Positions 3,651 to 60,720 are shown, numbered from the stretch's first letter. The stretch is 64,000 bases of DNA from a virus (IMGVR_UViG_3300045974_000760:79217-143216), one strand, 5' to 3'. The notes: generated by a model not told the origin, from the letters alone. A program made the numbers and translations.

Positions 3651-3912
3651 CCACATCAGGTTGATGCTGTTCGGTCCGTACGACACTACGTTCAGCCCGC
3701 ACCTTCCCTGTGAGATTCGGGGATGTGCGGGCAGTCGTTGTGAGCTCATGTCCGAAGACATGTTCTACGGTGACGGTGAGGACATACACTTCGGCACGCG
3801 CAGCTACGACAACGAGCTCGAAGCGCCGGAGTACATACCCGACGGGCCCATTGGCTCCTTCGAGATGGCAGGGCCTCGCGCAAGGCGCGCGGTCTTGGGC
3901 GTCTATGCGTTA
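3637..3912 (+). CDS. Short acidic peptide, array member 1 (ends at TTA)
   Basis: In-frame TTA 3910-3912 overlaps the next ATG (ATGCGTTA); standard-code end would be 3984. Confidence 0.55.
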
Positions 3913-4078
3913 CATCTGGCTCATACTCGGGCCCGGGCCCCGGCACGAGCTCCACACCGAAGAGACGCGCTTCTGCTTCGATGACTGGAAGGCCGACGCA
4001 GAAGAGTACCCAGAACCTCCCTGTAGTGAAACGAAGGCCAGCGGCTGCCTGGCAGTGGAGTATCGAGAATGGAGGTGA
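3905..4078 (+). CDS. Short peptide, array member 2
   Basis: WKADAEEY...SGCLAVEY motif shared with 4856 and 5252 genes. Confidence 0.65.
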   Translation: MRYIWLILGPGPRHELHTEETRFCFDDWKADAEEYPEPPCSETKASGCLAVEYREWR

Positions 4079-4082
4079 GCAG

Positions 4083-4292
4083 ATGATGACCTGGCTACGG
4101 TTGTTTCGAATGACACCGATGACGGAGAACTGCAGGTACAAGTCCGGCGTTGGTGCGCACCAGCGTCAGCACATGCCGTGGGAGGCGCAGATGTGGCCCG
4201 GTCTTGCGGACGGGGGCAGCATCTTCGAGAGCAGGGGCGAGGGCATACATCCGATGGCTGACTCTCGCGGTCTATTCACGGCTCCAGAATGA
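4083..4292 (+). CDS. Short peptide, array member 3
   Basis: GGAGG RBS; ATGA coupling to next gene. Confidence 0.55.
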   Translation: MMTWLRLFRMTPMTENCRYKSGVGAHQRQHMPWEAQMWPGLADGGSIFESRGEGIHPMADSRGLFTAPE

Positions 4293-4489
4293 TGCAGATC
4301 TTGAAATGGCACTACTACATAGTCGGTGAACCTGGGGACTCGATCGCGGGGCAAGGTGACTATCGTTTCGCAGCGGGGATTGCAACACCTGCTGCGCCGC
4401 GTTTTTCCGACGAGTACGACGAGCACCACGGGGGTGGAACAAATGAGCTGTGGAGGAGGCCAGAACGTGATGACACTACAACGGATTGA
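4289..4489 (+). CDS. Short peptide, array member 4
   Basis: ATGA overlap; same size class. Confidence 0.55.
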   Translation: MMQILKWHYYIVGEPGDSIAGQGDYRFAAGIATPAAPRFSDEYDEHHGGGTNELWRRPERDDTTTD

Positions 4490-4676
4490 TTTCACCGTCG
4501 GCATGCACTTCGTACATGCCGGGCGGGACGAGCTCGGCATCTACGGCAATGGCCAGTACATGCACTACCCGTACGCCGTAGATGCCGTCAGCATCGGTGA
4601 TGGTTGGTGCGGTACGGACGAAGTAGTTTGCCACGGCGAAGGCGCCTCCTACAGGAATATTGCGCATGATACCTAG
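4470..4676 (+). CDS. Short peptide, array member 5
   Basis: GGAGGAGG RBS; overlaps neighbours. Confidence 0.55.
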   Translation: MTLQRIDFTVGMHFVHAGRDELGIYGNGQYMHYPYAVDAVSIGDGWCGTDEVVCHGEGASYRNIAHDT

Positions 4677-4869
4677 CAATGCCCTGCTCATCGTGCGGTC
4701 CCGCTACACACTGTTTGCTGAGCCGTGCCCTGGCCTAATGGCCTCCGACGCGGCCTGGTGCGCCTCACTGACCAACACACAGGACGCACGACGTACCTGG
4801 CATTGTTACCTCATTCGATACCGAGAGTGCATCGGTGAAGCGGAAGGATGGGAAGATGATTGCGGTTAG
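4666..4869 (+). CDS. Short peptide, array member 6
   Basis: AGGA RBS; short overlaps on both sides. Confidence 0.5.
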   Translation: MIPSNALLIVRSRYTLFAEPCPGLMASDAAWCASLTNTQDARRTWHCYLIRYRECIGEAEGWEDDCG

Positions 4870-5065
4870 AATGTCCCACTACGCGTACTGGGGTACTTCC
4901 AGTCAACCGTATCGACACTACGCTGAGTCGCAATGTGAGTACCTTTGCGAGCGTCCGTGGAAAGGTGACGCGGAGGAGTACGTGTACGATGAAGAGGAAG
5001 CGCTGAGCGGTTGTCTGTACGAGGAGTACACGTACAGCCACCGCTCGGCAGAAGGGCGGTGTTTA
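4856..5065 (+). CDS. Short peptide, array member 7 (ends at TTA)
   Basis: MIAVRMSHY...WKGDAEEY...EYTYS is colinear with the 5252 gene; TTA 5063-5065 falls within about one codon of the paralog's TGA. Confidence 0.7.
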
Positions 5066-5066
5066 C

Positions 5067-5252
5067 GTGTGGCTACGAGCTCTGCCCTTCGTGCCCTACA
5101 TGCACTTCTACGAGTACACGCCCATTGCCTCCCACGAATACAACCTCGTAACGGAGTGGAACGTGTTGCTCGTAGAAGAGCTCGATACAACGAACCCAAC
5201 ATACCGAGGTTACTGCGCGGACGAGATACTAGACACACACAGGGGCATCTAA
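5067..5252 (+). CDS. Short peptide, array member 8
   Basis: GTG start 1 nt after the upstream TTA; TAATG overlap with next. Confidence 0.55.
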   Translation: MWLRALPFVPYMHFYEYTPIASHEYNLVTEWNVLLVEELDTTNPTYRGYCADEILDTHRGI

Positions 5253-5464
5253 TGATTGTGCTTCGAATGTCTCACTACACGTACGAAGGCACGCACGCGC
5301 AGGATGAATGTGCGGACTGGTATAGCGAGGCGTATCCGCCACATTACCTCTGGGCGGTAGATGCGGAGGAGTATGCCTACGTGGCCCCCCTCCCTGGTGA
5401 GCCAGGAGGCGGTGTGCTCGACCACGAGTACACCTACAGTAGTCGCGAGATTGAGAATCGATGA
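5252..5464 (+). CDS. Short peptide, array member 9
   Basis: MIVLRMSHY...WAVDAEEY...EYTYS, paralog of member 7. Confidence 0.7.
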   Translation: MIVLRMSHYTYEGTHAQDECADWYSEAYPPHYLWAVDAEEYAYVAPLPGEPGGGVLDHEYTYSSREIENR

Positions 5465-5667: not shown

Positions 5668-5718
5668 ATCGGGGATAAGAAGTACGCAGGCGGTTACTAC
5701 ACACAGGAGGAAGAACAG

Positions 5719-8181: not shown

Positions 8182-8194
8182 TGTGAGGTAACGA

Positions 8195-8224: not shown

Positions 8225-8303
8225 ATATGTCTTGCCCCGCAAATACAAGCGCGTAGTCGGGATAAGCCATGTGAGCGCACGCTACGCGTTCAGAAAGAAG
8301 AAC

Positions 8304-10412: not shown

Positions 10413-10688
10413 ATGCCTATCTCACCCGATGCAGCACGAACCATTACTGACCCCGCGTTGTTGACCCGCTTGTCCGAGTTCATGCAAGTCGTCGACATCG
10501 CTCTGATTCAACGCGCGGGAGCTCCAAGTCATGTCTTTTCCCCGCCCGCTGACTTGTTCGCCCACCCCAAGGCGCGGGAGTTCTTCAGGTCAGCCTACTG
10601 GGGGGCTGGCTGGCACGTGTACTTCAGGCTCGAGTACGACCGTGTCCCCGAGCTCACCCTGATACCCAAAGAGGCCAAGGCGTCATGA
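10413..10688 (+). CDS. Hypothetical protein
   Basis: AAGGA RBS after GGGGATAAG motif. Confidence 0.65.
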   Translation: MPISPDAARTITDPALLTRLSEFMQVVDIALIQRAGAPSHVFSPPADLFAHPKAREFFRSAYWGAGWHVYFRLEYDRVPELTLIPKEAKAS

Positions 10689-11041
10689 TTACACCCGAGG
10701 AGCTGATGAGCGTCATCGTGCGGTTGTTCGGTGCGGCTGCCGTGATGCTCCTCCTGGTGGCATCTGCGGGCCTGCTACGCATCTGCTCCCTCCAGGAGAA
10801 GCTCAAGATGGTCGGGGAGAAGGAGCGGAGGGTGACGGCGGCCGAGCACACCTCTCTCGATTGGTCCCGTCGCATGGGCCTCGGTATGCCCGTAGGCCAG
10901 CAATGCAGCGTCGTGGATGACGCAGGGCGGGTCTTCTGTACCCTCGCCCATCGAACCCCCGACACGTCTCTCGCAACGACGTATCTCTGGTGCACCGCTG
11001 AAAGGTGCACCACAACAGACACAATGCCTGTACCGGAGTTA
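10685..11041 (+). CDS. Membrane-anchored Cys-rich protein (ends at TTA)
   Basis: N-terminal TM; in-frame TTA 11039-11041 lies 4 nt before the next ATG. Confidence 0.6.
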
Positions 11042-11045
11042 CAAC

Positions 11046-11279
11046 ATGGACATCTCATACAGCACGCAGTTGTGGGAGCTACCGGTTGTGGAGCGCAACT
11101 GGTGGAAGCAATACGTGAAGGGCAAGGACGGGATGAGCGTCGACTTCCCGAAAGACCGCGGTCTGATGACCGTCATCACCGCGAGCTCACAGGAGCAGCT
11201 CGACGCTGCGCTCAAAGAGTTCGACGAGAAGTATCCCTCGATGTACTCCGGGATGAACCGGGCAGTAGGTGGGCCATGA
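11046..11279 (+). CDS. Hypothetical protein
   Basis: GGAG RBS; good codon bias; ATGA overlap with next. Confidence 0.65.
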   Translation: MDISYSTQLWELPVVERNWWKQYVKGKDGMSVDFPKDRGLMTVITASSQEQLDAALKEFDEKYPSMYSGMNRAVGGP

Positions 11280-11686
11280 CGAACCAGAACGACTACAAGC
11301 TGCGTTGGCGCAATACCCCCGAGGGCTACGTCCTCTTCCTGCGGTCCCATGAGGAGGGTAAGCCAGATGAGATAGTGGCACAGGCGTGTTTGGCACCCGC
11401 GCTTCAGACCGCCATCGTGCTGGTGGTGTTGCGCTCGCCACAGGGTAAGCCGCTGACCGTCGAGCCGGTGGTGTCGATAACGAGCGGGGCGCTCTCGCTG
11501 GAGGAGACGCTCGAGCTCGCTGTGTGGTGCTTCGAAGAGTCGGGCCTGGAGACAAGGCAGCTCCAGCCCAACAGCATCGATTGGTTCGCCTTCCCGTCGG
11601 GAGCGAAAGAGCGGGCCCAGGCGAACAGGAAGAAGCAGCTCGATCAAGAGGCTGCAGATGCTGCTTGCAAGAAAGAGCCGAACTGA
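11276..11686 (+). CDS. Hypothetical protein
   Basis: AGGTGG RBS; ATGA overlap. Confidence 0.65.
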   Translation: MTNQNDYKLRWRNTPEGYVLFLRSHEEGKPDEIVAQACLAPALQTAIVLVVLRSPQGKPLTVEPVVSITSGALSLEETLELAVWCFEESGLETRQLQPNSIDWFAFPSGAKERAQANRKKQLDQEAADAACKKEPN

Positions 11687-11804: not shown

Positions 11805-11875
11805 GGGAGGTTGGGGCGGTTCCCCTAGCGGGCCTTATAAGCCGTGATCCACGGGTTCAACTCCCGTACCTCCTA
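11805..11875 (+). tRNA. tRNA-Ile(TAT)-like, imperfect; possibly part of a larger RNA starting at 11705
   Basis: GGGAGGT/ACCTCCT acceptor, CTTATAA loop, ACGGG-TTCAACT-CCCGT T arm. Confidence 0.5.
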
Positions 11876-11905
11876 CAACAACCACAACACAGAAAGGAGC
11901 AGCCC

Positions 11906-12349
11906 ATGGCTGTTCGACGTATCCGTGTACCTGCGCGCGAGCTCTCACCCGAGCTGCTCGATGCGGTTCGCGCTATTGCAGCAACCAATGATGTACCTGC
12001 AGAGGACGTTGAGGTTGACATCGTCAGTCCAGCGGATGCGCCACTACGCGACCGCGTACTAGCTCTGCTGGGAACGCCGCGTGAGGGCCCGGTGTTTGAG
12101 CAGCAGTACCAAGGCATGTTCATCGAGGCTGATAGAGTGCCTGAGCACCCTGAGCTAACGCCACAGCAACAGGCGATACTGAGGCGGCAGCGAGAAGCGA
12201 TGTTCGGGAGGAGATACGGGCGTAGCGGCAGAGACTTCAGTGTTTCGTCCCCGCCGCTCACAGAGGAAGAAGGGCGCGCCCTGAGCAATACACTCGTGGA
12301 CTCCTTGCGTACACCGCCAGTGCTGCGCAGACCGCATCTTCATGTCTGA
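11906..12349 (+). CDS. Hypothetical protein
   Basis: AAGGAG RBS. Confidence 0.7.
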   Translation: MAVRRIRVPARELSPELLDAVRAIAATNDVPAEDVEVDIVSPADAPLRDRVLALLGTPREGPVFEQQYQGMFIEADRVPEHPELTPQQQAILRRQREAMFGRRYGRSGRDFSVSSPPLTEEEGRALSNTLVDSLRTPPVLRRPHLHV

Positions 12350-12749
12350 GCAAGACTGGGCAGACATCCAGCAGTGGAGCGGTGAGTCGCCGGATATGGC
12401 AGATGCCGTGGCCATGGCCGTAGCAAACACCGTCAAGCCGCGGGTGAAGCGCCCGAAGTACCTCGGTGAACTCATGAAGAAGGGCGGGCTCGATATCGAC
12501 GCCATCATCAATAGCCGGGTCGGTGACTACTACTCCCTGGACAAGCCCCGTGACCCAGGCTTCGCCAACTACCTCAAGGACACGTACAGGTGGAGTAAAC
12601 ACGAAGCTCGCCGCCAATGGCGCGCCCTACTCGATCGCGATATCGACCCCGCGGTAATACTCAACACAAGGAGGGCAACGTGGCGAAAGATGACGCAGAA
12701 CAAGCAAACGAAGGTCGCGACCTCGGAGCAGAACCTAGTAGAACCGTTA
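12342..12749 (+). CDS. Hypothetical protein with LGELM...DID motif (TTA at 12747; TAG at 12783 in standard code)
   Basis: YLGELMKKGGLDIDAIINSR. Confidence 0.6.
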
Positions 12750-13426
12750 TCCAGACACACTCTGTGCAGCACGTCTTCGCTGTAGGGGAGGAGAGGGCAG
12801 TCGGCGCGATGGTGGATGGGCGCTATCACGAATACAACCACGGCGAGACCGTACCCGGACCGAATGTCATCGAGGTGGTCGCGCAGCTCGAGACTCCGCT
12901 GGAGTACATTCGTATGCAGCTGCAGATCCCCGATGAAGTAGTTGTCGAGGCTGCCGCCGCGGGGGCGTTGCGCACTCTCACTGACGGGGTGGAGGCGATG
13001 TACCTGCTCGACCGGCGAATCATGCGGATGCCACTGCTTCCATTCGGCCCGCTTCATCAGTCGAGGGTGCCGCTGCCCATGCCTCCGCTCCCAACAAGCA
13101 GCGCGGTCTTCCCGCCCTACCGCAACAGCCTGCCCGTACCCCGCCCAGCATGTCTCGGGGAGTTGATGAAGAAGGACGGGAAGAACATCGACGCGATAGT
13201 AGAAGCGCGGGCGCCCGTACGGTACCCGCGGCACAGGAACCTCAATCAGCTCAACCCAGTGCATCGTGGTGTCCGCGAACAGTTCAAGGAGTACCTCATT
13301 ACGAGAGGCATTACCGCCAAGAACTCCAGGCAAGCCTGGGCTACGTCGTCGGAGGAAGGGCAGAGCCCAAGGTTCGTGCTGGAGTACAGCTTCCAGTACT
13401 TCATGCATCGACTGAGGGCGACGTAG
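12680..13426 (+). CDS. Hypothetical protein with LGELM...NID motif (start 12680 or 12809)
   Basis: CLGELMKKDGKNIDAIVEAR. Confidence 0.6.
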   Translation: MAKDDAEQANEGRDLGAEPSRTVIQTHSVQHVFAVGEERAVGAMVDGRYHEYNHGETVPGPNVIEVVAQLETPLEYIRMQLQIPDEVVVEAAAAGALRTLTDGVEAMYLLDRRIMRMPLLPFGPLHQSRVPLPMPPLPTSSAVFPPYRNSLPVPRPACLGELMKKDGKNIDAIVEARAPVRYPRHRNLNQLNPVHRGVREQFKEYLITRGITAKNSRQAWATSSEEGQSPRFVLEYSFQYFMHRLRAT

Positions 13427-13464
13427 GACCGCAGGAGCGTTGTACTTCCCGCGGTTTTCTTAGC
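13427..13464 (+). terminator. Intrinsic terminator
   Basis: ACCGC...GCGGT stem plus TTTTCTTAGC. Confidence 0.55.
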
Positions 13465-13594
13465 TACAACACCGCCAATACAAAAGGTACTTGCGCTTCT
13501 GAAAACGCGCTGTATTACTTCCCTCGTCCCGAAGTACAACCTAACCGGTGACGAGGGACCCCCTCTTAGCAGTCAGTAACGCTCTGTGAAAATG

Positions 13595-13687
13595 TAAGCC
13601 GGTCGGAGTTCGATAGGACATGGCTGTCCAGGCGGTCTGTAACACCGCGGCCCTACGGGGCGAGTGGTTCGATTCCACCGGGCTTCA
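13595..13687 (+). tRNA. tRNA-Tyr(GTA)-like with atypical 5' half
   Basis: GCGGT-CTGTAAC-ACCGC anticodon arm, long variable arm, GGTTCGATTCC T loop; D region enlarged. Confidence 0.55.
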
Positions 13688-13811
13688 CTGGAAGAGCTGG
13701 CCGCCCCTCGGGGAGGAGGGGCTCTTCCTACTTTTTGTTCGGGTCGTTGGTTGTGGGTTACCCCATCGAAAAAGTCCCCCACGTCCATTCATTTATCCGA
13801 ACTTGTAGTAC

Positions 13812-13897
13812 GCCTCGTGTAGCTCAGTTGGTAGAGCGCGGGATGACATCCGAAAGGGGTCTGCCCGAGGTCGATGGTTCAAGCCCATCCACAGGCA
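13812..13897 (+). ncRNA. tRNA-like RNA, anticodon loop replaced by a GAAA-capped hairpin
   Basis: Canonical TAGCTCAGTTGGTAGAGC D arm and T arm; 21 nt between CGGG and CCCG. Confidence 0.6.
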
Positions 13898-13990
13898 CAC
13901 GGGCTGAATAAGCTCGGGCGCAAGCCCCTCTACTCTTGGTGACACAAGAGATAGACTGAGTTCCGGCTCAGAGGTAAACCGGAGAAGTAC

Positions 13991-14067
13991 GGGTAGGGAA
14001 GAGAAATGGTTCTCACTGGCCGCGTAGTTCGTCCACGCCCCGTCGGTTCGATTCCGACCTCTACCCC
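13991..14067 (+). ncRNA. tRNA-like RNA with no canonical anticodon arm
   Basis: GGGTAGGG/CTCTACCC stem, GAGAA/TTCTC arm, GTCGG-TTCGATT-CCGAC T arm. Confidence 0.5.
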
Positions 14068-14202
14068 CGCCGGTCCCCGATGACGAGTCGACTTACTCTA
14101 CGTAAGATGTTGGCCGTCTCTGTTCGCCTCTCGTAAACGCTAGCCTCTTCACGAGCGACAGATAGAGAATAATCGGGAGTACTGGCAGCTACTTGTTGTA
14201 TT

Positions 14203-14275
14203 GAGGCGTTAGCTCAGGTGGAAGAGCGGTGAGCTGTTAACTCACTTGTCGTTGGTTCAACTCCAACACGCTTCG
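14203..14275 (+). tRNA. tRNA-Asn(GTT)
   Basis: Full cloverleaf; GTGAG-CTGTTAA-CTCAC. Confidence 0.92.
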
Positions 14276-14277
14276 CA

Positions 14278-14387
14278 TGCTGGTTGTACCGAGACAAGCT
14301 TAAGCCCGTGACGCTTAGGCGCTTGCACTCCCCGATGATGTTCTAGACTACTTCAAAGGGGCGGGTGAGCTAGACGTATAGCCGGCA
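14278..14387 (+). ncRNA. Long rod-like structured RNA
   Basis: 12-bp terminal stem with G-U pairs, inner stems, followed by a U tract. Confidence 0.45.
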
Positions 14388-14399
14388 AGTTCTTTTTTT

Positions 14400-14471
14400 A
14401 CCAGCATAGCTCAGCGGTAGAGCTTCGCCTTTACACGGCGGATGTCGGGGGTTCGAATCCCTCTGCCGGTA
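14400..14471 (+). tRNA. tRNA-Val(TAC)
   Basis: Cloverleaf; TCGCC-TTTACAC-GGCGG. Confidence 0.9.
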
Positions 14472-14475
14472 CAAT

Positions 14476-14550
14476 GCGCGAGCGGCGAAACTGGCAAACG
14501 CACATGCCTTAGGAGCATGAACTCTAGGGGTTCGAGCCCCCTCTTGCGCA
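14476..14550 (+). tRNA. tRNA-Leu(TAG), short variable region
   Basis: CATGC-CTTAGGA-GCATG; GCGCGAG/CTTGCGC acceptor. Confidence 0.85.
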
Positions 14551-14563
14551 TAGTTGTTTTCAC

Positions 14564-14636
14564 GCTGACGTAGCTCAGTCGGTAGAGCTCCTGTTTTGTA
14601 ATCAGGGGGTCGGGGGTTCAAATCCCTTCGTCAGCT
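14564..14636 (+). tRNA. tRNA-Thr(TGT)
   Basis: Cloverleaf; TTTGTAA loop. Confidence 0.9.
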
Positions 14637-14717
14637 CTTCGCCGCGATAACCCAGCTAGAGGAACCACTAGCGTCTCAGTCTCGGTTGTTTTCGGCGGCC
14701 AACCGTAGAGGAAGAAC

Positions 14718-16923: not shown

Positions 16924-17349
16924 ATGTCTGCAGCAGGCGACGTAACCTACGTACCGATTGCCGGGTCAGCTGTACCCGACCAATACATTGACAACGAGCT
17001 CGCCACCAACGCTACAGCGCCCGGTGGTCTTGCAAAGCGACAGCGCACAGCCGACAACGACGCTCAACAACTCCTGAGCGACATCGCCACGCTGATGCGA
17101 ATGCTCGTCAGCAACACACCTGCTCGAGACGGTTCTCTCGACGCGGGCCGTGTGACGCTGGCGGGAACGACGAACAACATCGCGACTGTCACTACCGTCT
17201 CCAGCGTCTCCAGCGTCACAGGAGTGACTACCGTGACGACTGTGACGGGGCAGACGAACGCTGGCGGATTCAACATGCTGGCTGGTCAGATTGCTCTGGC
17301 GAACTCCCAGGCTGCGGCGCTTCGCAGCAAGATCTCGGTGACCCCGTTA
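16924..17349 (+). CDS. Thr/Val-repeat virion protein (ends at TTA)
   Basis: TVTTVSSVSSVTGVTTVTTV; TTA 17347-17349 shares its A with the next ATG. Confidence 0.65.
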
Positions 17350-24140: not shown

Positions 24141-24295
24141 CCGAATACGAGCAAGCCCTGGAACGGGGGCGGATCCTGGATAGAAGGATCGAAGCGCAGG
24201 AGCGGCATGTCAAGGCGTTCGCCGTGCTGGTCGGCATGTACGCTGCACTGGTGCTCGGCTACAGCGCGGTGGTTCTACACTACGTCCTCATTTTA
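24137..24295 (+). CDS. Small membrane protein (ends at TTA)
   Basis: C-terminal TM helix ends at TTA 24293-24295, upstream of the next gene's -10 box. Confidence 0.55.
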
Positions 24296-24338: not shown

Positions 24339-24881
24339 ATGACCCTCTCAGATCTCCTCCACGACATCAAGGTCGAGTTCCCGGGCTTTCGTCTCATGCC
24401 CAAAAGCGACTCGACCTTCATGAGCGTGCTCCACGTGCTCCTGACCATCATCACGCTCGGCGGGGCGCGTAAGAGCTTCATGGAGGATTACGTCACCACC
24501 ATCGGCAACACCATCTACATCCCCAACGGCTGGGGTTTGATCTCCGCGGAAGAGAAGGTTGTCCTTCTCCGTCACGAGCGCGTGCACCTTCGTCAGGCGC
24601 GCAAGTACGGAGCCTTCCTGTTCGCCTTTCTCTACCTCTGCTTCCCTCTGCCGCTCGTCTTCGCCTACTACCGCGCGAAGTTCGAGAAGGAGGCGTACGA
24701 GGAGAGCATGCGGGCTGATGCAGAGCAGTACGGCCTCACCGTCCTCAACGACAGCTACAAGGCCTTCATCCTCCGTCAGTTCACGGGCCCGATGTACGGT
24801 TGGATGTGGCCCTTCAAGGCGGGCATTGAAACGTGGTACAACGACACCGTGAAACGCGTGAGCAAGGAGCTGTCCCGATGA
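24339..24881 (+). CDS. HExxH zinc metallopeptidase-like protein
   Basis: TTIGNTIY...LRHERVHLRQ...FEKEAY. Confidence 0.75.
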   Translation: MTLSDLLHDIKVEFPGFRLMPKSDSTFMSVLHVLLTIITLGGARKSFMEDYVTTIGNTIYIPNGWGLISAEEKVVLLRHERVHLRQARKYGAFLFAFLYLCFPLPLVFAYYRAKFEKEAYEESMRADAEQYGLTVLNDSYKAFILRQFTGPMYGWMWPFKAGIETWYNDTVKRVSKELSR

Positions 24882-28640: not shown

Positions 28641-29039
28641 ACGGGCGACATCGACAAGAAGACCCGCGACCAGCTCGTGCGGGATTACAACGAGGACAAG
28701 CTCAAGGCACTGCTCGTCTCTTCGGCGGGCGGGGAAGGCCTCGACCTCAAGGGCACCCGCCTCGTGCAGATGCTCGACCCACACTGGAACAACGAGAAGC
28801 TCCGTCAGGTGGAAGGCCGGGCCATTCGCTACAAGAGCCACGACCACCTGCCCGAGGAGGAGCGCAACGTCACCATCAACAACTACCTGGCGACGCGCCC
28901 TCGTAAGGGCATCCTCGAGAGCTTGCACATCTCCGACCCGGGCCTTGGTGCGGACCAGTACCTGACGCGACGGTCTGGCGAGAAGGACAAGCTGATCGAC
29001 CAGTTCAAGGGGCTGCTCCCGAACTCGAAGAAGAGCTAG
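28641..29039 (+). pseudogene. C-terminal fragment of an SNF2/SF2 helicase
   Basis: TGD...RDQLVRDYN...LLVSSAGGEGLDLKGTR...DPHWN...QVEGRAIR; no N-terminal ATPase lobe. Confidence 0.75.
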
Positions 29040-30174: not shown

Positions 30175-30177
30175 ATG

Positions 30178-30248
30178 CGGTTCTGGCTGGAGTCGAACCA
30201 GCTTCCGGGAAGTTAGAAATCCTTGTTCGGCCGTTGAACTACAGAACC
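30178..30248 (-). tRNA. tRNA with CUA anticodon (putative amber suppressor); Arg(TCT) register pairs worse
   Basis: Perfect acceptor, D and T stems; canonical numbering gives U32 U33 C34 U35 A36 A37; anticodon stem has 3 WC pairs. Confidence 0.7.
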
Positions 30249-30303: not shown

Positions 30304-30627
30304 TCAACGAGCGAGTGCAAGAGGAAGTTTGCGCACCAGCTTACTGCTCTTGTTGCCTGGCTCGAGCGCGAAGGCGGTCAAGCTGTTGTTGAGGTCGGGC
30401 TCGAAGAAGAGGGCCGTACGGAGGCCTCGTAGACTCGCCTCTTCAGCCAGCCGGCGGAGCTACGTTTCGTCAGGCACGGATAGAACTGCGAGCGTGTTAC
30501 TAGCGGCATACCAGCTCTCCTCCAGATCGCGATGGTGAGCTTGAAACACACGGCACGCATGACACGCTTGAGCGACTTGGAGACCGGGAGGCAGATCTGC
30601 TCTGACGATGACATAAAGTTTCTCCAT
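30304..30627 (-). CDS. Pth2-like peptidyl-tRNA hydrolase with in-frame TAG at codon 56
   Basis: KLYVIVRADL...AQACHA...VPDET*LRRL...FEPDLNNSLTAFAL...LPLAL; family motifs on both sides of TAG 30460-30462. Confidence 0.85.
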
Positions 30628-30904: not shown

Positions 30905-31260
30905 TCCGCTGCCTCGTCCTTCTTGTACGGCACCTTCACGCGAGGCGGAGGAGCGGGGATCGCCCCTTCCTTGTTCGCGAGCCAGGTTGTCAGCGCCTCT
31001 TTCGATACGTCTGCTTCCCCGATCATCGCGTCGCGGAAAACGATGACGAGTAGAGAGATATTCGGGAAGTTATGCTCGAACCCGTTCTCCTTCTGCACCT
31101 TGTGGGAACGCTCGATACGTCGGTACGGGAAACCACGTATGAAGCCCCAAGCAAGATTGCCGTACCGGCCTTCTTCCTTGCAGTGCTTACGGAACGACTT
31201 GTGGAACGCCTTGATCTTCTCTTGCTCTTCAGCTGGCAACTGCTTGTAGTTCTCGAACAT
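30901..31260 (-). CDS. Hypothetical protein, first gene of the amber-gated operon
   Basis: LAWGFIRGFPYRRIE; GAGAGGA RBS. Confidence 0.75.
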   Translation of the reverse strand: MFENYKQLPAEEQEKIKAFHKSFRKHCKEEGRYGNLAWGFIRGFPYRRIERSHKVQKENGFEHNFPNISLLVIVFRDAMIGEADVSKEALTTWLANKEGAIPAPPPRVKVPYKKDEAAE

Positions 31261-33386: not shown

Positions 33387-33681
33387 AGAAGGCACCGTAG
33401 AACAACAGAACCTCGAGTTCCGCCGCGCTATCCAATCCGCGTACACCACGGTGCAAGCCGCCGAGGCGTCACGTGGATTGGGTAGTGTGACGTACGAGGA
33501 GCTGATGCAGCAGCAGGTGGACATGATTGAAGGTTCGGGGACAGATACGCGCCCCAGCATCCTTCAACGCATCGACCGGGTGGAGGCCGACATCCTTGCC
33601 GTGGTTGGGCAGGTGAAGGAGCTACCGGTCGAGTACGTCCTCCAGCCGAACGGGGAGCTGGACGCCAACACAGCACCTTGA
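33373..33681 (+). CDS. Hypothetical protein
   Basis: ORF. Confidence 0.6.
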   Translation: MATDKEGTVEQQNLEFRRAIQSAYTTVQAAEASRGLGSVTYEELMQQQVDMIEGSGTDTRPSILQRIDRVEADILAVVGQVKELPVEYVLQPNGELDANTAP

Positions 33682-33688: not shown

Positions 33689-34261
33689 TAACTCTTCGGG
33701 GAGTTTCGGAGGTGCGACGCGGCCGGGGATTGTCTGGGAGAAGTTCCAGCGGGCGACGGCCTTCGGCTCATCAGCCTGGCAAGTCCCCAGGGTGTAGCCG
33801 CTGAGGTTCCCGCAGGCGCCGATGCTTTGCTTCAACATGCGGTGAGCCGCACGGAGGCACTTCTTGCGGTCGGCGATCAAGTCAGCGCCGGACCACCCTT
33901 CAGCTGTCTTACCTTCGCCGATGTGAATCTGTGCGAGGCAGAAAGAAGTGGCTTTGCCTTTCCACTCATCGCAGGCGCCCTTGATGCATTTGCCATCGTC
34001 GACATCCTTGCGGTACCCCGACTCGAAGAAGGTGACGGCAATCAACAACTGGGCAGTTTGGATGCGTCCGTTTTTGCCCTTGAAGATTGGTTCTTCTTCC
34101 GCCACAACCGTAGCCATGTCGCGCGCAATACTGTTGTAGCGCGCCTTAGCTTGTTCTACCGTCTCGTTGTGCGGGTAGTGCTTCGCCCACGCGACACGCT
34201 TCTCTACAGGTGAAATCAGCAACATCACCGAGAGGATCCAAGTAGTGAGTAGTTCAATCAT
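33689..34261 (-). CDS. Lytic transglycosylase (SLT-like) with N-terminal hydrophobic segment (ends at TTA)
   Basis: FFESGY catalytic-type motif, CLAQI, LSGY; TTA ends it 7 nt from the convergent gene's stop. Confidence 0.65.
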
Positions 34262-34309: not shown

Positions 34310-34760
34310 CATGACCACACCTGATACAACCGTGCCCGCTGTCGCAACCGCCCCCGTCGAGAAGCGGGTCATCCGTCGCCGTAAGTTGGAGGACCTCATC
34401 AATACGATTGGGGAGCGCTACTTCTCGTTGCCGGGCGTTCCAGATGGGAAGTTGTTGTTGAGTGTTGAGACTGCGGGGGATGCGTACACCACGGCGGTTG
34501 TGAACGAGCAGATGGCGCTCGTGTTCGAGGGCAAGGGGAAGAACCTCGCCGAGGCGCTGGTCGATACGCTGCGCGGGGTTGTCGAAGCGGAGACCGCGTC
34601 GGATGCGGAAGCAGAGGCAATCCGCAAGCTCGAGGAGGAGCTCGCGGCGAAGAAGCTGGCGGCGAAGTCGAAGAAGAACATCCTCTCCGACTGGAAGGGC
34701 TTCGGCAAGAGCGGGGGCGGGGACGAGGCGGCGGACGCCGAGACCGCTGAAGCCAAGTGA
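34310..34760 (+). CDS. Hypothetical protein
   Basis: GAGGA RBS; strong codon bias. Confidence 0.7.
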
Positions 34761-35470
34761 GCTTCGAGGTCTGGAAGAGCTGGTCGGTGTACCCGCTCAA
34801 CTTCCGTACGTGGCCGTCGATGGCTACGTGCGACCTGCACGGCCGCATCATTACGCGGTCGCTGTACAGCAAGGCAGCAGAGGCGGCGCCGGAGGACAGT
34901 GCGTTCCGCGTGTTTCTGTTGAAGCACAATCTGACGATTGACCACGCGGACGTGGGGTATGTGCGGGCGTACTTGCTCGCCTTCCCTCCAGTCCAGAAGG
35001 AGGAGCCTGTTGGCCTTGATACCCCTGCTGCCCGCAACCACCGAGACATCAAACCCAAAGCTCGGGAAAAGCGTCTCCTGGGCGATAAAGCAAATGGAGC
35101 GCGGGAGGGAGGTGACGCGCTTGCAGTGGGTCGACCCTCCGAAGCGCCCACCGTACCTGTACAGGTCCCTCACGTTGAGCGCGCTGTGTCGAATACCAGC
35201 GCACGTGAGTCTGCCGGCGAATCCGGAGGCGCAGTTGCGAACGAACAAGTCGTACCTGTACGAGCTGAGCCTGCAGGACAAGGAGGCGAAGGATTGGGTG
35301 CGCCTGGACTTCTGGCTTCGGGACAACGGTATACGGCGGCACTAGACTCGTTCCACAAGGGGCGTCGAGTGCGGCGGGGTATCTGGCCCGTCTCGCAGTG
35401 GAAGACGGAGGAGAAGAGTCCATCGCGTGACATGTTCGCGATGGATTGGGAGATCTGGTCGCCGTTATGA
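34757..35470 (+). CDS. Hypothetical ORF with C-terminal DUF2829/Tad2-like motif
   Basis: ALDSFHKGRRVRRGIW...PSRDMFAMDW; ends TTA-TGA. Confidence 0.45.
   Translation: MSFEVWKSWSVYPLNFRTWPSMATCDLHGRIITRSLYSKAAEAAPEDSAFRVFLLKHNLTIDHADVGYVRAYLLAFPPVQKEEPVGLDTPAARNHRDIKPKAREKRLLGDKANGAREGGDALAVGRPSEAPTVPVQVPHVERAVSNTSARESAGESGGAVANEQVVPVRAEPAGQGGEGLGAPGLLASGQRYTAALDSFHKGRRVRRGIWPVSQWKTEEKSPSRDMFAMDWEIWSPL
35010..35345 (+). CDS. DUF2829/Tad2-like protein
   Basis: SWAIKQMERGREVTRLQW...LSLQDKEAKDW; AAGGAGGAG RBS, TTG start. Confidence 0.55.
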   Translation: MALIPLLPATTETSNPKLGKSVSWAIKQMERGREVTRLQWVDPPKRPPYLYRSLTLSALCRIPAHVSLPANPEAQLRTNKSYLYELSLQDKEAKDWVRLDFWLRDNGIRRH

Positions 35471-56550: not shown

Positions 56551-56595
56551 AGCCGCCGGATGCCCGGCGACTAGTGGCGTTGATTGTCCTACCGA

Positions 56596-57927: not shown

Positions 57928-58232
57928 TTCGCTGGCACCGTCGTGTCGATGGCTTCCCACTTGGTAACGCAGAAGCGGAAGCCGCCCGTACCGTCAACCC
58001 ACGTCAGGCGGAACTCGATGTTGCCCCTGCGCGGTTTGCCTACTGCTTCCGAGAGAAGCCACATCGCGTCCTCCTTACGCGTGAGGCGCGCCACCTTGTC
58101 GTTGTCCGTCTCGCTGAGCGTATTGAGGCGGCACACGGCGCGCAACAGGACGTCAGGTACCTGCTCCGACGGTACAACTCCCAGGCACACCGCGTTTGCC
58201 CAATCCTTCACAACTTTAGTCCTCCCGCCCAT
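57924..58232 (-). CDS. Hypothetical protein
   Basis: Coupled ORF with GGAGGAG RBS. Confidence 0.6.
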   Translation of the reverse strand: MGGRTKVVKDWANAVCLGVVPSEQVPDVLLRAVCRLNTLSETDNDKVARLTRKEDAMWLLSEAVGKPRRGNIEFRLTWVDGTGGFRFCVTKWEAIDTTVPAK

Positions 58233-58503
58233 ACTGCTCCTCCTTCACTTCCATCACGTTGCCGTCACGGTCCTCGCGAAGCGCGAGCTGACCCCTGCCC
58301 CGCAGCCCAGGGAAATCCATCAGGTCTTCAATCAAGACGGAGAAGTAGTGCGTCCCTTCCCCGTCCGACCCGTCGTCGAATCCCTCTTGGTGCCTGTCCC
58401 AGAAGTGCGGGACGTAGAGCATCTGCCCCTCGAACTTCCCGGGAGATTGAATGATGTCACGCGAGTCGACTTCGTATTGCTCCAGCAGCTCTTTTCGCGT
58501 CAT
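58216..58503 (-). CDS. Hypothetical protein
   Basis: PGKFEG motif; GGAGGA RBS. Confidence 0.65.
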   Translation of the reverse strand: MTRKELLEQYEVDSRDIIQSPGKFEGQMLYVPHFWDRHQEGFDDGSDGEGTHYFSVLIEDLMDFPGLRGRGQLALREDRDGNVMEVKEEQYGRED

Positions 58504-58517
58504 GTTAGCTTTCCTCC

Positions 58518-58976
58518 ATGCACCGATACATCGCTCTCATTCTGGCTGTTGTACTTCTTGTGAACCCCGCATACGCGCAGCCCAAGCCGGTGCAGGACAT
58601 CCCTCCCGGCGAAGACAACATCGTCGTCGTCAAGAAGGGAGACCCCGCACCGTTCACCGGGCAGTTGTTCGACCCATCGACTGCGCTGCGGTGGGCGAAC
58701 TGGCTCGAGCAGTACCGTCTGCGGCTGAAGGCGGATGTCGAGCTCGAGCAGAAGCGCGGCGAGCTCGGCACGGCCTTGTGGCAGCAGAAGTACACCATCC
58801 AGAAAGACTTCTATGAGGTGCAGCTCGCTCAGGCGTTGAAGGACAAGGAGGCCCTTACTGTGCGGCTGAATGACCGCCCCTGGTACACCACCGTGTGGTT
58901 CGGTTCAGTACTGGGCGTTGTCGGTACCGGCCTACTCGTCGGCGGTACTGCCTACGCCCTTCACGCTACCCGCTGA
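58518..58976 (+). CDS. Secreted/membrane coiled-coil protein (spanin-like)
   Basis: Signal peptide, KGDPAPFTGQL, coiled coil, C-terminal TM. Confidence 0.65.
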   Translation: MHRYIALILAVVLLVNPAYAQPKPVQDIPPGEDNIVVVKKGDPAPFTGQLFDPSTALRWANWLEQYRLRLKADVELEQKRGELGTALWQQKYTIQKDFYEVQLAQALKDKEALTVRLNDRPWYTTVWFGSVLGVVGTGLLVGGTAYALHATR

Positions 58977-59159
58977 CTTCGTACTGTCGTATCCACGTCA
59001 GCAGTACATCGACGGGGTACGACGACACGTTGGGCGGGGTAACTCCGAGTCGTCGGAGTATGGCTTGCAGCTCTTCGGGGGAAGAAGCCGCCAGCACATC
59101 CGCAGATATCTCGAGTAGGTCTTCGGCCTTCGGCGGGGTAACGCCCGCCAGCGGGAAGA

Positions 59160-60290
59160 CTACTTCCGGCCTTTGCCCTCCTTGGCTGGCGCTTTTCCCG
59201 ACGGCTCCGCCTTGCCTTCCGATGGCCGCCCAAGCTCGGCGAATGCCGTGAGCATCTCGTGGGTGCGCTGCTTGACCTCTTCCGGGGTCCAGCCGAACGC
59301 CTCCACTGCCTGCGCGAGCAGCAGCGCGCCCACGGTCAGTGTGACTTGCTGCTGCGCGTGAACTTCGCCGCGCAGCTTCTTGATATCCTCCGCGTTCTCC
59401 TTGCTGACGCGCAGGTTCTCGTCGAGCTGGAGGCGGATGTTGTTGAGCGCGATTGTGTCGTCAGACGCAATCTCGTTCGCCGATGCCTGGATGACTTCCA
59501 GGAGCTCGAGGATGCGAGCCGCACCTGCCCCGCCCGATGCTGCCTTCGCCTCTGCTGGTCGTGGCGCTGGGGCTGGTGTGGCGGAGGCAGGCGGCGGGAT
59601 GGACGCTGGGCGGGGTGTAGGCGCTGGCGTTGGCTCTGGGGGGGCCACCACCGCTGCGCTGACAGGCGCGGGCGTAGGAGGGGGCAGCAGGGTGACAGCA
59701 GCCGGTGCCCCTGATGCACCATCGCGAGCCACCAGGGCTACCAGGATGTTGGCCGCCTGTGCCTCGGGGGAGAGCGCGCCAAAGGCCGTGCGCTCTTCGG
59801 GAGTGCTGAACATCCCGAGCTCCTGCGCGATGGAGCGACGCTTGAACGTGTTGATGGCGGCGATGGCTGCCGCATTGCGTGGGATGCTGTCGAGAACGGC
59901 GTTATCGGACATGTCGAAGGGCGTCTCCGTGTTGGTGCGTTTGCGCGCTGCCAGCTCTTGGCGCTGGTGCTGGTTTGAGGTGACGCAGTAGATGACCTGT
60001 GCGTCGGGGCAGTTGAAGCACTCCCGCGGATTGAACGACTTGAGCGGGCAAGTAATCTGCGCTTCGAGCTTGGTGCGGTGTGCGATGGCCAGCTGCGCCA
60101 GAGCAATGCGCCAAGGGTCGAGCGGGTGCGGGTACATCGGCAGGCTGATGCGCTTGAACATCAAGCGGTCAATCAACTCTGCCCTACTCATGTTCGGGCG
60201 AACGGCTAGGCCATGAAGCTGTCCACGCTGGTACAACTCAGTGCGATTGCAGTCTTCCCAGAGACCGCGCTCATCGCCGGTACTGGTCAA
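59160..60290 (-). CDS. Hypothetical protein with Cys cluster and Pro-rich linker
   Basis: CP...CFNC...C; PAPTP repeats. Confidence 0.7.
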   Translation of the reverse strand: MTSTGDERGLWEDCNRTELYQRGQLHGLAVRPNMSRAELIDRLMFKRISLPMYPHPLDPWRIALAQLAIAHRTKLEAQITCPLKSFNPRECFNCPDAQVIYCVTSNQHQRQELAARKRTNTETPFDMSDNAVLDSIPRNAAAIAAINTFKRRSIAQELGMFSTPEERTAFGALSPEAQAANILVALVARDGASGAPAAVTLLPPPTPAPVSAAVVAPPEPTPAPTPRPASIPPPASATPAPAPRPAEAKAASGGAGAARILELLEVIQASANEIASDDTIALNNIRLQLDENLRVSKENAEDIKKLRGEVHAQQQVTLTVGALLLAQAVEAFGWTPEEVKQRTHEMLTAFAELGRPSEGKAEPSGKAPAKEGKGRK

Positions 60291-60720
60291 AGCTCAAGAC
60301 CTCCCCAAGGTTGATGTTGTCGACGGTGAGGTCGTAGACCCACGCAATGGTGCGTGCTTCGGTCGCGTAGCTCTTCACCACGCCGACGAACATGTGCTGG
60401 CTGTCGTCATAACCGCCCACGTCCTTCAAGCAGTCCTCGAAGAGCTTGACGCGGTTAGTGCCATCAGCGTGCTTATACCGGGTTTTGCAGGTCTTTGGCC
60501 AACCCGCGTTCTCGATGTCCGTCAGGTGGAGGTCGATGATGAGCGCGTAGGGATGGTTGGCCTGGAACAGTCGCAGTTGTGTTGGGTACGTGCGGGACAG
60601 GTGCGCGATGGTCTCGTTCTTGTACTTGCGCCCGACCTCCGAGAGGATGCGTTTGCCGTGCGCGTTGACGTAAGCGTGGTTTGTTGTTGGCGGTACCCCA
60701 GGTACCTCGAGCCGTATCAT
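60271..60720 (-). CDS. RusA-like Holliday junction resolvase
   Basis: PPTTNHAY...D.TNR.K..ED.L.....DDSQ. Confidence 0.8.
   Translation of the reverse strand: MIRLEVPGVPPTTNHAYVNAHGKRILSEVGRKYKNETIAHLSRTYPTQLRLFQANHPYALIIDLHLTDIENAGWPKTCKTRYKHADGTNRVKLFEDCLKDVGGYDDSQHMFVGVVKSYATEARTIAWVYDLTVDNINLGEVLSFDQYRR

What the first reader, a model, noticed from the sequence alone, without database searches (positions are those of the whole stretch)
3910..60673. TTA (UUA) behaves as a fourth stop codon across the window
Seen: reading every confident CDS by eye, including the 951, 1331 and 1440 aa genes, recA, thyX and dcd, I found no internal in-frame TTA, although CTA, TTG, ATA and AGA are used. In-frame TTAs instead sit at or near expected gene ends. 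These are 3910 (ATGCGTTA overlap with the next start), 5063 (1 nt before the next GTG and aligned with the TGA of paralog 5252-5464), 11039 (4 nt before the next ATG), 17347 (TTATG, the analogue of TGATG/TAATG coupling), 24293 (end of a TM helix, before the next promoter), 30614-16 minus (14-nt overlap with the pth2 start), 33689-91 minus (7 nt from a convergent stop), 35465 (TTA-TGA tandem), plus weaker cases at 12747 and 60671-73 minus. Treating TTA as stop removes 70-260 nt overlaps and two false three-gene fusions. Established: UUA=stop is known from Thraustochytrium mitochondria (translation table 23); I know of no bacterial or phage case, and bldA-type TTA control in Streptomyces uses sense codons. 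Inference: either a release factor reads UUA, or UUA is unassigned and ends translation by stall plus rescue/drop-off. TAA, TGA and TAG still act as stops.
Basis: partly seen in the sequence, partly recalled or inferred. Interest (0 to 1): 0.97.

Follow-up and report, generated by a model that had tools for sequence, protein, structure and literature searches.

The report
TTA works as a fourth stop
In this large phage and its relatives the leucine codon TTA is never used inside genes and instead sits exactly where related phages have ordinary stop codons, so it ends translation: a change of the genetic code so far described only in a few mitochondria and plastids.

Summary
Observation confirmed and extended. 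The window is the last 64 kb of a 143-kb phage contig (61% GC). Genome-wide, in-frame TTA occurs 11 times in 43,300 codons (163 expected), the most depleted sense codon. It never lies inside a conserved domain. At three window sites (11039, 33691 minus, 35465) close relatives carry TGA at the orthologous codon. At 17347, and at the sigma-factor gene outside the window, homologues end at the TTA. A prediction made from an over-long homologue (P0019) was met: its extra tail starts with TTA. High GC does not explain it. Relatives at 44-57% GC show the same pattern (14 TTA against 167 expected). A complete 177-kb relative at 46% GC has 90 against 679 expected, and TTA would end 66 of its 226 genes. 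Salmonella phage Arash and other family members use TTA normally. The phage has no tRNA-Leu(UAA). No release-factor gene was found in it or in two complete TTA-poor relatives, only one of which uses TTA at gene ends. The trait is patchy on the family tree. I therefore favour a host-side cause, but the host and the molecular reader of UUA remain unknown. This scan noted the same phenomenon earlier on other phage DNA, including a 435-kb megaphage.

The parts
3910..3912 (+). TTA ending a 54-codon ORF that starts at ATG 3748
   Evidence: The ORF scores 17.4 before the TTA. The 23-codon tail to TGA 3982 scores -13.0. An ATG lies 5 nt upstream in another frame. No homologue test was made.
5063..5065 (+). 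TTA in ORF 4835-5464 (weak case)
   Evidence: The upstream 76 codons score only 5.1. The 132-codon tail runs across two other called genes (5091-5252 and 5252-5464). A GTG lies 1 nt after the TTA.
11039..11041 (+). TTA ending the 118-aa gene 10685-11041
   Evidence: Relatives L026 and L027 (75-77% aa identity) have a 118-aa gene ending in TGA at exactly this codon. The next gene's ATGGACATC lies 3-4 nt further on, and the gene order 91/118/77/137 aa is the same. Under table 11 the ORF would fuse three genes into 333 aa.
12747..12749 (+). TTA ending the 135-aa gene 12342-12749 (weaker case)
   Evidence: The ORF scores 39.4 before the TTA. The 11-codon tail scores -5.5. No homologue was found.
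17347..17349 (+). TTA ending the 141-aa gene 16924-17349, overlapping the next ATG (TTATG)
   Evidence: Seventeen homologues were found. The best (128-139 aa) end at query residues 139-141 and none aligns to 143-164. The tail scores -4.4 and the next gene's frame scores +10.8.
24293..24295 (+). TTA ending a small gene (about 69 aa, start 24086)
   Evidence: The 58-codon tail scores -19.9, while another frame (gene 24339-24881) scores +16.2.
28685..28687 (+).
   Evidence: The 72-codon tail scores -28.9. The frame of the next gene (GTG 28677-29039) scores +32.9.
30614..30616 (-). TTA ending the 92-aa gene 30892-30614, 14 nt inside the start of pth2
   Evidence: The 37-codon tail scores -24.6. 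Pth2 (PF01981) lies directly downstream.
33689..33691 (-). TTA ending the 190-aa gene 34261-33689
   Evidence: P0001 (94% identical) ends ...KLPEE just before this codon. L008 and L009 have TGA here. Most of the 14 homologues end within about 5 residues of it. The 86-codon tail scores -35.4 and lies on the 3' end of the convergent gene 33373-33681.
35465..35467 (+). TTA followed directly by TGA at the end of gene 34757-35467
   Evidence: The relative L008 reads ...TCGCCG TGA TGA where this phage reads ...TCGCCG TTA TGA.
60671..60673 (-). TTA ending a 220-codon ORF that starts at ATG 61333 (weaker case)
   Evidence: The ORF scores 38.9 before the TTA. The 65-codon tail scores -19.2, and the next gene's frame scores +23.2. 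The start of the next gene is unsettled.
11805..14637 (+). Phage tRNA genes: Ile(UAU), Tyr, an odd class-II tRNA, Asn, Val(UAC), Leu(UAG), Thr(UGU). There is no tRNA-Leu(UAA).
   Evidence: ARAGORN and Rfam. The phage supplies readers for other A-ending codons but not for UUA.

Best explanation
In the cells where this phage clade is translated, UUA is not read as leucine and it ends productive translation, so TTA is a fourth terminator beside TGA, TAG and TAA. It closes about 9-10% of this phage's genes and about 29% in a complete relative at 46% GC. The phages have purged TTA from gene interiors, and TGA and TTA now interchange at gene ends by single G<->T changes. That much is shown by the sequences. 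Which molecule reads UUA is inferred. My first choice (about 45%) is the host's own machinery: a host without a functional tRNA-Leu(UAA) whose class-I release factor accepts U at codon position 2. This is what is proposed for the RF2 Ser204 substitution in labyrinthulean mitochondria and peDinoflagellate plastids. My second choice (about 20%) is that UUA is merely unassigned in the host, and stalled ribosomes are released by rescue or by drop-off plus peptidyl-tRNA hydrolase. My third (about 20%) is that the phage imposes the state by a factor that is not a recognisable release factor. The confidence given is for the statement that TTA ends translation, not for any one mechanism.
For: (1) Depletion. 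TTA occurs 11 times against 163 expected in 43,300 codons, the lowest ratio of all sense codons. Out-of-frame TTA is common: 540 trinucleotides on the two strands.
(2) Position. The in-frame TTAs sit where the coding signal ends. Allowing four stops gives 187 genes instead of 176, raises coverage from 90.6% to 91.9%, and 17 genes end in TTA.
(3) Orthologues. TGA stands in close relatives at our TTA at 11039, 33691(-) and 35465.
(4) Family C-termini end at the TTA. This holds for the 190-aa protein, the sigma factor at codon 274, the gene ending at 17347 and ORF g62223, where homology stops at residue 336 and the TTA is codon 339. DUF932 downstream of sigma is a stand-alone protein elsewhere.
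(5) A prediction was met. The over-long sigma homologue P0019 has TTA at codon 270, at the family's end. P0004 has TTA three codons after the point where P0001 stops.
(6) It is not a GC effect. Relatives at 44-59% GC have 14 TTA against 167 expected, 12 of the 14 in the last 30 codons (p = 6e-10). The complete genome G001 (46% GC) has 90 against 679. Its three 'internal' TTA sites are junctions of genes that are separate in other genomes, and in one of them homology ends at residue 1036 with the TTA at codon 1037.
(7) Controls use TTA throughout their genes. These are Salmonella phage Arash (66 against 57), G006 (242 against 367), L022, L023 and LR756511. Relatives with rare TTA at similar GC keep it inside large genes (L029, L055, G004).
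(8) The phage's tRNA sets lack Leu(UAA), although G001 carries Leu(CAA) and Leu(UAG).
(9) For a host-side cause: there is no RF-1 domain in this contig, in two complete relatives (G001, which uses TTA at gene ends, and G004, where TTA is rare but internal) or in three partial ones. The trait is patchy on the family tree, with at least 6 changes. No translation-related gene is shared only by TTA-terminating genomes. TTA ends genes in every part of the genome.
(10) TTATG overlaps with the next start occur at 5 of 32 TTA ends, and T is favoured at the base after the TTA (15 of 32). Both fit true termination better than a long stall.
Against: No protein or ribosome data exist and the host is unknown, so no release factor or host tRNA set could be examined. 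Raw reads could not be inspected, and this genome itself rests on one assembly. Four assemblies of a relative are identical at their TTA sites. Most TTA-ended genes are small ORFans without homologues, so only about half of the window's sites have comparative support. My gene caller is home-made and its start choices are rough. In high-GC relatives with 0-2 TTA the state cannot be called, so the count of changes on the tree is soft. A host whose release factor reads UUA has never been described among bacteria.
Confidence: 0.82

Rival explanations
1. TTA is still leucine but a very rare, slowly read codon, because the host is poor in tRNA-Leu(UAA) as in Streptomyces bldA biology. Selection removes it from gene interiors. 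The survivors sit in real but unimportant C-terminal tails made by stop-loss mutations.
For: Relatives exist in which TTA is rare yet internal (L029, L055, G004). The phage carries tRNAs for other A-ending codons, which suggests a host poor in such readers. UUA is poorly decoded in vegetative Streptomyces (PMC10732093).
Against: Stop loss to any of the other seven or so sense codons one mutation away should be as frequent. Yet all three orthologous stop positions with an extension carry TTA, and in G001 TTA closes 66 of 226 genes. The tails reach 86 to 354 codons. They fuse unrelated proteins (sigma with DUF932, three genes at 10685-11686) and score as non-coding. Relatives at 44-50% GC still have no internal TTA.
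Confidence: 0.07
2. TTA is a programmed recoding site (a hungry-codon frameshift or bypass, as proposed for the phage Hau3 terminase) that joins the upstream and downstream ORFs into one product.
For: UUA-triggered bypassing has been proposed for Streptomyces phages (PMC10732093). Several TTA sites abut or overlap the next ORF.
Against: The flanking ORFs are separate genes with their own starts in relatives, which have an ordinary stop at that place. Homologues of the upstream protein end at the TTA. Some TTAs face a convergent gene or a tRNA cluster, with nothing to join (33691, 12747). Tandem TTA-TTA and TTA-TGA occur.
Confidence: 0.03
3. The TTAs are sequencing, assembly or base-modification artefacts standing for real TGA or TAA.
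For: All three orthologous differences are G<->T at the second base. Reads could not be checked.
Against: An error or a DNA modification cannot know the reading frame. Of the 4,135 TGA trinucleotides counted over both strands, only those at gene ends would be affected. The same pattern is seen in many independent assemblies from JGI, ENA and Logan. Four assemblies of one relative are identical at their TTA sites. An artefact also cannot explain the absence of TTA from gene interiors.
Confidence: 0.02
4. The phage itself makes UUA a terminator during infection. For example, it could inactivate the host tRNA-Leu(UAA) and free stalled ribosomes with its own factors, possibly Pth2. This would shut off TTA-containing host and rival-phage messages while its own TTA-free genes are spared.
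For: The phage encodes a Pth2 peptidyl-tRNA hydrolase, a P-loop kinase (AAA_33), a 2H phosphoesterase and a GNAT. Pth2 is found in 3 of 5 TTA-poor relatives against 1 of 5 TTA-using ones. The nearest cultured relatives infect Salmonella and Vibrio, which read UUA normally.
Against: No release-factor domain was found in two complete relatives, one TTA-terminating and one merely TTA-poor. No candidate gene is shared only by TTA-terminating genomes. The trait is patchy on the tree. TTA also ends small genes in the early-looking part of the genome, which would be translated before any phage factor is made. The Pth2 association is weak.
Confidence: 0.2

Closest known systems
Labyrinthulean (Thraustochytrium) mitochondrial code, NCBI table 23, and peDinoflagellate plastids (PMC12574857)
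   Same: UUA is absent from gene interiors and stands where homologues have stops. TAA, TAG and TGA remain stops. UUG stays leucine (435 in-frame TTG here).
   Different: Those are organelles with a few dozen genes, and their change is tied to a Ser204 substitution in an organellar RF2. Here it is a clade of 140-180-kb phages translated in bacteria, no release factor could be examined, and UCA is an ordinary sense codon (230 uses).
UUA and UUG as stops in Marsupiomonadales and Pseudoscourfieldia (Pycnococcus) mitochondria through an altered mtRF1a (PMC12574857)
   Same: A leucine codon has become a terminator.
   Different: Both UUR codons are affected there. Here only UUA is.
Unassigned codons in bacteria: AGA and AUA in Micrococcus luteus, CGG in Mycoplasma capricolum (codon-capture theory, PMC4695839); unassigned UAG in recoded E. 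coli (PMC6207430)
   Same: A codon vanishes from coding sequence and loses its tRNA. The phage family shows every step: normal use, rare use, absence, and use at gene ends only.
   Different: Unassigned codons are simply missing, and stalling at them is harmful. They are not used to close a tenth to a quarter of all genes.
Streptomyces bldA/TTA control and UUA-triggered bypassing proposed for phage Hau3 (PMC10732093)
   Same: UUA is a hungry codon whose reader is lacking during phage growth. The adpA upstream ORF described there also ends with UUA a few nucleotides before the main start.
   Different: There TTA is a sense codon inside regulatory genes, or a take-off site inside one essential gene. 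Here it never lies inside a gene, and the flanking ORFs are separate genes.
Stop-codon recoding in phages (TAG to Gln, TGA to Trp; own knowledge of Ivanova 2014 and Borges 2022)
   Same: A phage lineage has a genetic code that differs from table 11, and suppressor-type tRNAs are present. A CUA-anticodon tRNA occurs here and in G001.
   Different: The direction is opposite: sense to stop rather than stop to sense. TAG still behaves as a stop for most genes here.

Membership tests
Sense-to-stop reassignment of UUA (table-23-like code) | UUA absent from conserved internal positions of genes | tested here: met
   There are 11 in-frame TTA in 43,300 codons and none lies inside a homology-supported domain. 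The same holds in G001 and in six partial relatives.
Sense-to-stop reassignment of UUA (table-23-like code) | UUA found where homologues have a termination codon | tested here: met
   TGA stands in orthologues at 11039, 33691(-) and 35465. Family C-termini coincide with the TTA at 17347, at the sigma factor, at g62223 and in P0004 and P0019.
Sense-to-stop reassignment of UUA (table-23-like code) | No tRNA able to read UUA | tested here: inconclusive
   The 8 phage tRNAs here and the 10 in G001 include no Leu(UAA). The host's tRNA set is unknown.
Sense-to-stop reassignment of UUA (table-23-like code) | Class-I release factor with an altered codon-recognition motif (RF2 SPF serine, or the RF1 region) | not testable with these tools
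   No RF-1 domain was found in this contig or in five relatives, two of them complete. The host is unknown.
Sense-to-stop reassignment of UUA (table-23-like code) | Protein ends at the residue before UUA (proteomics or ribosome profiling) | not testable with these tools
Unassigned codon (Micrococcus luteus type) | Codon missing from all reading frames of genes, gene ends included | tested here: not met
   TTA is present and enriched at gene ends. It ends 17 of 187 genes here and 66 of 226 in G001. Some relatives (L066, L037, L058) do fit this state, with 0 TTA.
bldA-type TTA regulation (Streptomyces) | TTA as a sense codon at leucine positions inside a subset of (regulatory) genes | tested here: not met
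   There is no internal TTA. The sigma-factor TTA lies after the last conserved residue.
UUA-triggered translational bypassing (phage Hau3 terminase) | UUA followed by a short non-coding block inside one gene whose two parts align to a single homologue | tested here: not met
   The parts on either side of the TTA are different genes, separated or in other frames in relatives.
Phage stop-codon recoding (TAG or TGA read as an amino acid) | Coding signal continues through in-frame TAG or TGA in many genes | tested here: not met
   Of the 32 TAG and 79 TGA codons with strong upstream coding signal, 0 and 4 respectively have strong signal downstream. The only clear in-frame stop is in pth2.

The most novel reading that the evidence does not exclude
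A lineage of bacteria that serves as host to these phages, not yet recognised, itself uses UUA as a stop codon. That would be a free-living organism with four stop codons, missed because codon-meaning screens only infer amino acids and gene callers merely over-extend ORFs. Alternatively, the phages impose the code themselves as a way to shut off the host. Either way it would be the first sense-to-stop change outside organelles.
Probability: 0.6. Interest if true: 0.97.

Novelty: new variant of a known kind. Interest (0 to 1): 0.92.

Why it matters
A sense codon turned into a stop has been described only in mitochondria and, in 2025, in one group of plastids (PMC12574857). Finding it in a clade of large phages means it operates on bacterial ribosomes, in genomes with some 200 genes. 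It also points to hosts, or phage factors, with an unknown way of ending translation at UUA.

The phage family holds every step of the codon-capture path side by side: normal use, rare use, loss, and re-use as a stop. This makes the evolution of such a change directly testable.

There is a practical side. Table-11 annotation of these genomes is wrong at roughly every tenth gene, and at every fourth in G001. It produces over-long proteins, false overlaps and false fusions such as sigma with DUF932, and such products are already in public protein collections (P0004, P0019, P0035). A fourth stop codon would also act as a barrier to gene flow in both directions, which bears on host range and on engineered genetic firewalls.

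Tried and rejected
- **Searches that found nothing.** megablast of the 951-aa gene against GenBank phages gave no match. The search for related loci with that single protein found nothing in IMG/VR or in the metagenomes. Relatives appeared only once alignments or small ORFs were used. tblastn of two TTA-bearing ORFs against phages gave no match. Pfam and PHROGs gave nothing for most TTA-bearing ORFs.
- **First scoring control.** My sliding-window control ignored stops and also ranked AGA and TGT high. I replaced it with ORF-bound tests. Change-point analysis alone was too noisy to use.
- **Records that could not be reached.** Searching the 182-kb ENA relative as a whole was not possible. 'relatives' is not defined for a virus record.
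- **Homology tests that failed.** L019's gene upstream of pth2 and L027's 135-aa gene are not homologous to ours, so they give no test.
- **Search for a phage-encoded cause.** No RF-1 domain was found. Pth2 is only weakly associated with the trait. The only well-matched gene shared with G001 but absent from G006 is dCTP deaminase.
- **Host.** Sample accessions are in no paper held. Family contigs sit in MAG bins of Myxococcales, Anaerolineales, Desulfatibacillum and Gemmatimonadaceae, which is too weak and too mixed to name a host.
- **Context.** No consistent codon precedes the TTA (Pro in 5 of 32).

Full report
**What the window is.** The window is bases 79,217-143,216 of a 143,216-bp IMG/VR virus record, 61% GC, estimated 77% complete. 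It is a tailed phage. It encodes a terminase with an intein, sigma factor, DUF932, RecA, ThyX, dCTP deaminase, an endolysin with PG_binding_1 and Pth2. Its nearest cultured relatives are distant, about 26-31% identity: Salmonella phage Arash and some Vibrio phages. It has eight tRNA genes: Ile(UAU), Tyr, Asn, Val(UAC), Leu(UAG), Thr(UGU), one odd class-II tRNA and one with a CUA anticodon. There is no tRNA-Leu(UAA).

**Checking the observation.** I wrote a codon-usage gene caller in which TTA scores zero, and ran it on the whole contig.
- Under table 11 it finds 176 genes and 43,344 codons. TTA is in frame 11 times, against CTA 213, TTG 435, ATA 100 and AGA 43.
- Position-specific base frequencies predict 163 TTA. 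The ratio of 0.067 is the lowest of the 61 sense codons; the next is AGA at 0.21. Out of frame, TTA is ordinary: 540 trinucleotides on both strands.
- Seven of the 11 lie in the last 30 codons of their ORF, against a background of 12% (p = 8e-5). Three are the very last codon before a stop.
After each, the score in that frame turns negative, and usually another frame turns positive. I found an eleventh site at 28685.
- With TTA allowed as a stop the caller finds 187 genes, covers more sequence (91.9% against 90.6%), and 17 genes end in TTA, next to TAA 18, TAG 22 and TGA 130.

**Comparative tests in the window.**
- The ORF on the minus strand ending at 33430 under table 11 has 18 homologues. 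The closest, P0001 (94% identity, 190 aa), ends ...KLPEE, the residue before our TTA, and most others end within about five residues of it. In the DNA of two relatives (L008, L009) the orthologous codon is TGA.
- At 11039, relatives L026 and L027 have the same four genes of 91, 118, 77 and 137 aa that my four-stop model predicts. They read ...CCGGAG TGA where this phage reads ...CCGGAG TTA, and the next gene's ATGGACATC follows a few bases later.
- At 35465, L008 reads TGA TGA where this phage reads TTA TGA.
- At 17347, the best homologues (128-139 aa) end at residues 139-141 of the query, TTA is codon 142, and nothing aligns to the 22-codon tail.

So every site for which a relative could be found behaves as a stop. 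The three orthologous differences are all single G<->T changes between TGA and TTA.

**The four 'internal' TTAs outside the window.**
- The 628-aa ORF at contig 59134-61020 is a sigma factor (residues 39-273) followed by TTA at codon 274, a 26-codon spacer and a DUF932 protein that starts at an ATG. DUF932 is a stand-alone protein of about 314-345 aa in other phages. Ten sigma homologues end within a few residues of the TTA. In three relatives the sigma match stops at residue 261-273 and no DUF932 follows.
- This gave a test. The closest sigma homologue, P0019, runs 30 residues past the family's end, so I predicted a TTA at that point. Its DNA has TTA at codon 270, and the tail overlaps the start of DUF932.
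- ORF g62223-63422 has homology up to residue 336, and its TTA is codon 339.
- The remaining two cases have weakly coding or non-coding sequence after the TTA.

**Not an effect of high GC.**
- Relatives found through these proteins span 44-59% GC. Pooled (19,934 codons), they have 14 in-frame TTA against 167 expected, again the most depleted codon. Twelve of the 14 are in the last 30 codons and the other two at 30 and 31 (p = 6e-10).
- One relative at 44% GC has TTG 118, CTT 157 and AAA 163 but only five TTA, all within the last seven codons, twice as TTA-TTA. Four independent assemblies of it are identical there.
- A scan of IMG/VR with the 1331-aa structural protein gave 78 family members. 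One, G001, is a complete 177,132-bp genome with terminal repeats at 46% GC. It has 90 in-frame TTA against 679 expected, nearly all in the last 35 codons. With four stops its genes end in TGA 81, TTA 66, TAA 54 and TAG 25.
- Its three seemingly internal TTA sites are junctions of genes that are separate, and in different frames, in this phage and in G006. In one of them homology to the first gene ends at residue 1036 and the TTA is codon 1037.

**Controls.** Salmonella phage Arash (54% GC) has 66-70 TTA, spread evenly. G006, a complete family member at 55% GC, has 242. L022, L023 and LR756511 use TTA at or above expectation. Family members in which TTA is rare keep the few copies inside large genes with coding signal on both sides. 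These are L029 at 62% GC, L055 at 50% and G004 at 59%, where 8 are seen against 221 expected and all are internal. The end-only pattern is therefore not what a merely rare leucine codon looks like.

**Distribution in the family.** On a FastTree of the 1331-aa protein, this phage, L008 and L010 form a supported clade (99). That clade is sister to one that mostly uses TTA as a sense codon. The end-only state needs at least six changes on the tree, and sister pairs differ: L066 has 0 of 68 expected while L073 has 19 of 68, at the same GC. States in high-GC members with 0-2 TTA are uncertain, so this count is soft. The family shows normal use, rare use, absence and end-only use. That is the order expected under codon capture (PMC4695839).

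**Mechanism.** It is shown that UUA is not used as leucine and that it marks the ends of coding regions. Who reads it is inferred.
- No RF-1 (GGQ) domain is encoded in this contig, in two complete relatives (G001 and G004) or in three partial ones.
- The phage tRNA sets lack Leu(UAA). G001 nevertheless carries Leu(CAA) and Leu(UAG), and G004 carries 42 tRNAs with four other leucine acceptors.
- No translation-related gene is shared only by the TTA-terminating genomes. The best such gene is dCTP deaminase.
- Pth2 is only weakly associated: 3 of 5 TTA-poor genomes against 1 of 5 TTA-using ones.
- TTA ends genes in all parts of the genome.
- Five of 32 TTA ends overlap the next ATG as TTATG, and T is favoured at the following base. 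A long-lived stall would block such coupled starts.

Together with the patchy tree, this favours a property of the host. The most plausible version is a release factor that accepts U at the second position, for which the RF2 Ser204 substitution in labyrinthulean mitochondria and peDinoflagellate plastids is the precedent (PMC12574857). An unassigned codon resolved by rescue or drop-off is the second choice; in recoded E. coli, unassigned UAG is resolved by mistranslation and rescue (PMC6207430). A phage-imposed state is the third. The host is unknown. Bins that hold family contigs are of mixed phyla.

**What is known.** I found no paper reporting UUA as a stop in bacteria or phages. The closest literature covers organellar UUA stops (PMC12574857), unassigned codons (PMC4695839, PMC6207430), and UUA as a hungry codon in Streptomyces and its phages (PMC10732093). 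Earlier notes of this scan report the same reading on the preceding window of this genome and on other phages, among them a 435-kb megaphage. I did not test those.

**Verdict.** The molecular reader of UUA is open. Two limits remain: there are no protein or ribosome data, and reads for this assembly were not available.

Noticed in passing
window 30304-30627 (-) and 30177-30248 (-): The Pth2 (PF01981) gene is interrupted by one in-frame TAG at codon 56 (...VPDET*LRRL...). A tRNA with a CUA anticodon (Rfam 49.7 bits) lies just downstream on the same strand. In relative L019 the same codon is TAA (...VPSET*LHRL...) and no tRNA was found on that 7.6-kb contig. So the in-frame stop is conserved, but its type is not. 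G001 has a CUA tRNA too, but its pth2 is uninterrupted and ends in TTA.
   Followed up: partly
window 13813-13898 (+): A tRNA-like gene of class II length passes the Rfam tRNA threshold (41 bits), but ARAGORN draws it with a six-base anticodon loop and two acceptor-stem mismatches. It may be a degenerate tRNA-Ser(UGA).
   Followed up: partly
contig 1211-4303 (L002:1211-4303): The large terminase (GpA_ATPase) is 1031 aa. Only residues 527-997 match other terminases. Intein, Hint and LAGLIDADG domains are present in this part of the genome.
   Followed up: no
whole contig: The genome has genes typical of RNA repair or tRNA conflict: an AAA_33 P-loop kinase, a 2H-SAK phosphoesterase and a GNAT acetyltransferase. 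I did not locate them or link them to UUA.
   Followed up: no
G004 = IMGVR_UViG_3300034358_000044 (L124-L133): This complete 195.7-kb family member has 42 tRNA genes, including Leu(CAA), Leu(UAG), Leu(GAG) and Leu(CAG) but not Leu(UAA). TTA is seen 8 times against 221 expected and all copies are internal. It looks like an intermediate 'rare sense' state.
   Followed up: partly
L066 against L073 (IMG/VR family members): These are sister lineages at the same GC (52%). One has no in-frame TTA against 68 expected. The other has 19, of which 16 are internal.
   Followed up: partly
LR756511.1 1-50000 (L025): This 595-kb GenBank 'uncultured phage' gives very fragmented table-11 genes (130 short genes in 50 kb), which suggests a different, stop-to-sense recoding. 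It uses TTA normally.
   Followed up: no
public protein collections (P0004, P0019, P0035, P0043): Database proteins of this clade are over-extended past a TTA, by 44, 30 and 22 residues in the three I could check. Automatic annotation is systematically wrong here.
   Followed up: partly
contig 31079-31081 (L003:11079-11081): One trinucleotide serves as TTA at the end of a plus-strand gene and, read on the other strand, as the TAA stop of the convergent gene.
   Followed up: no
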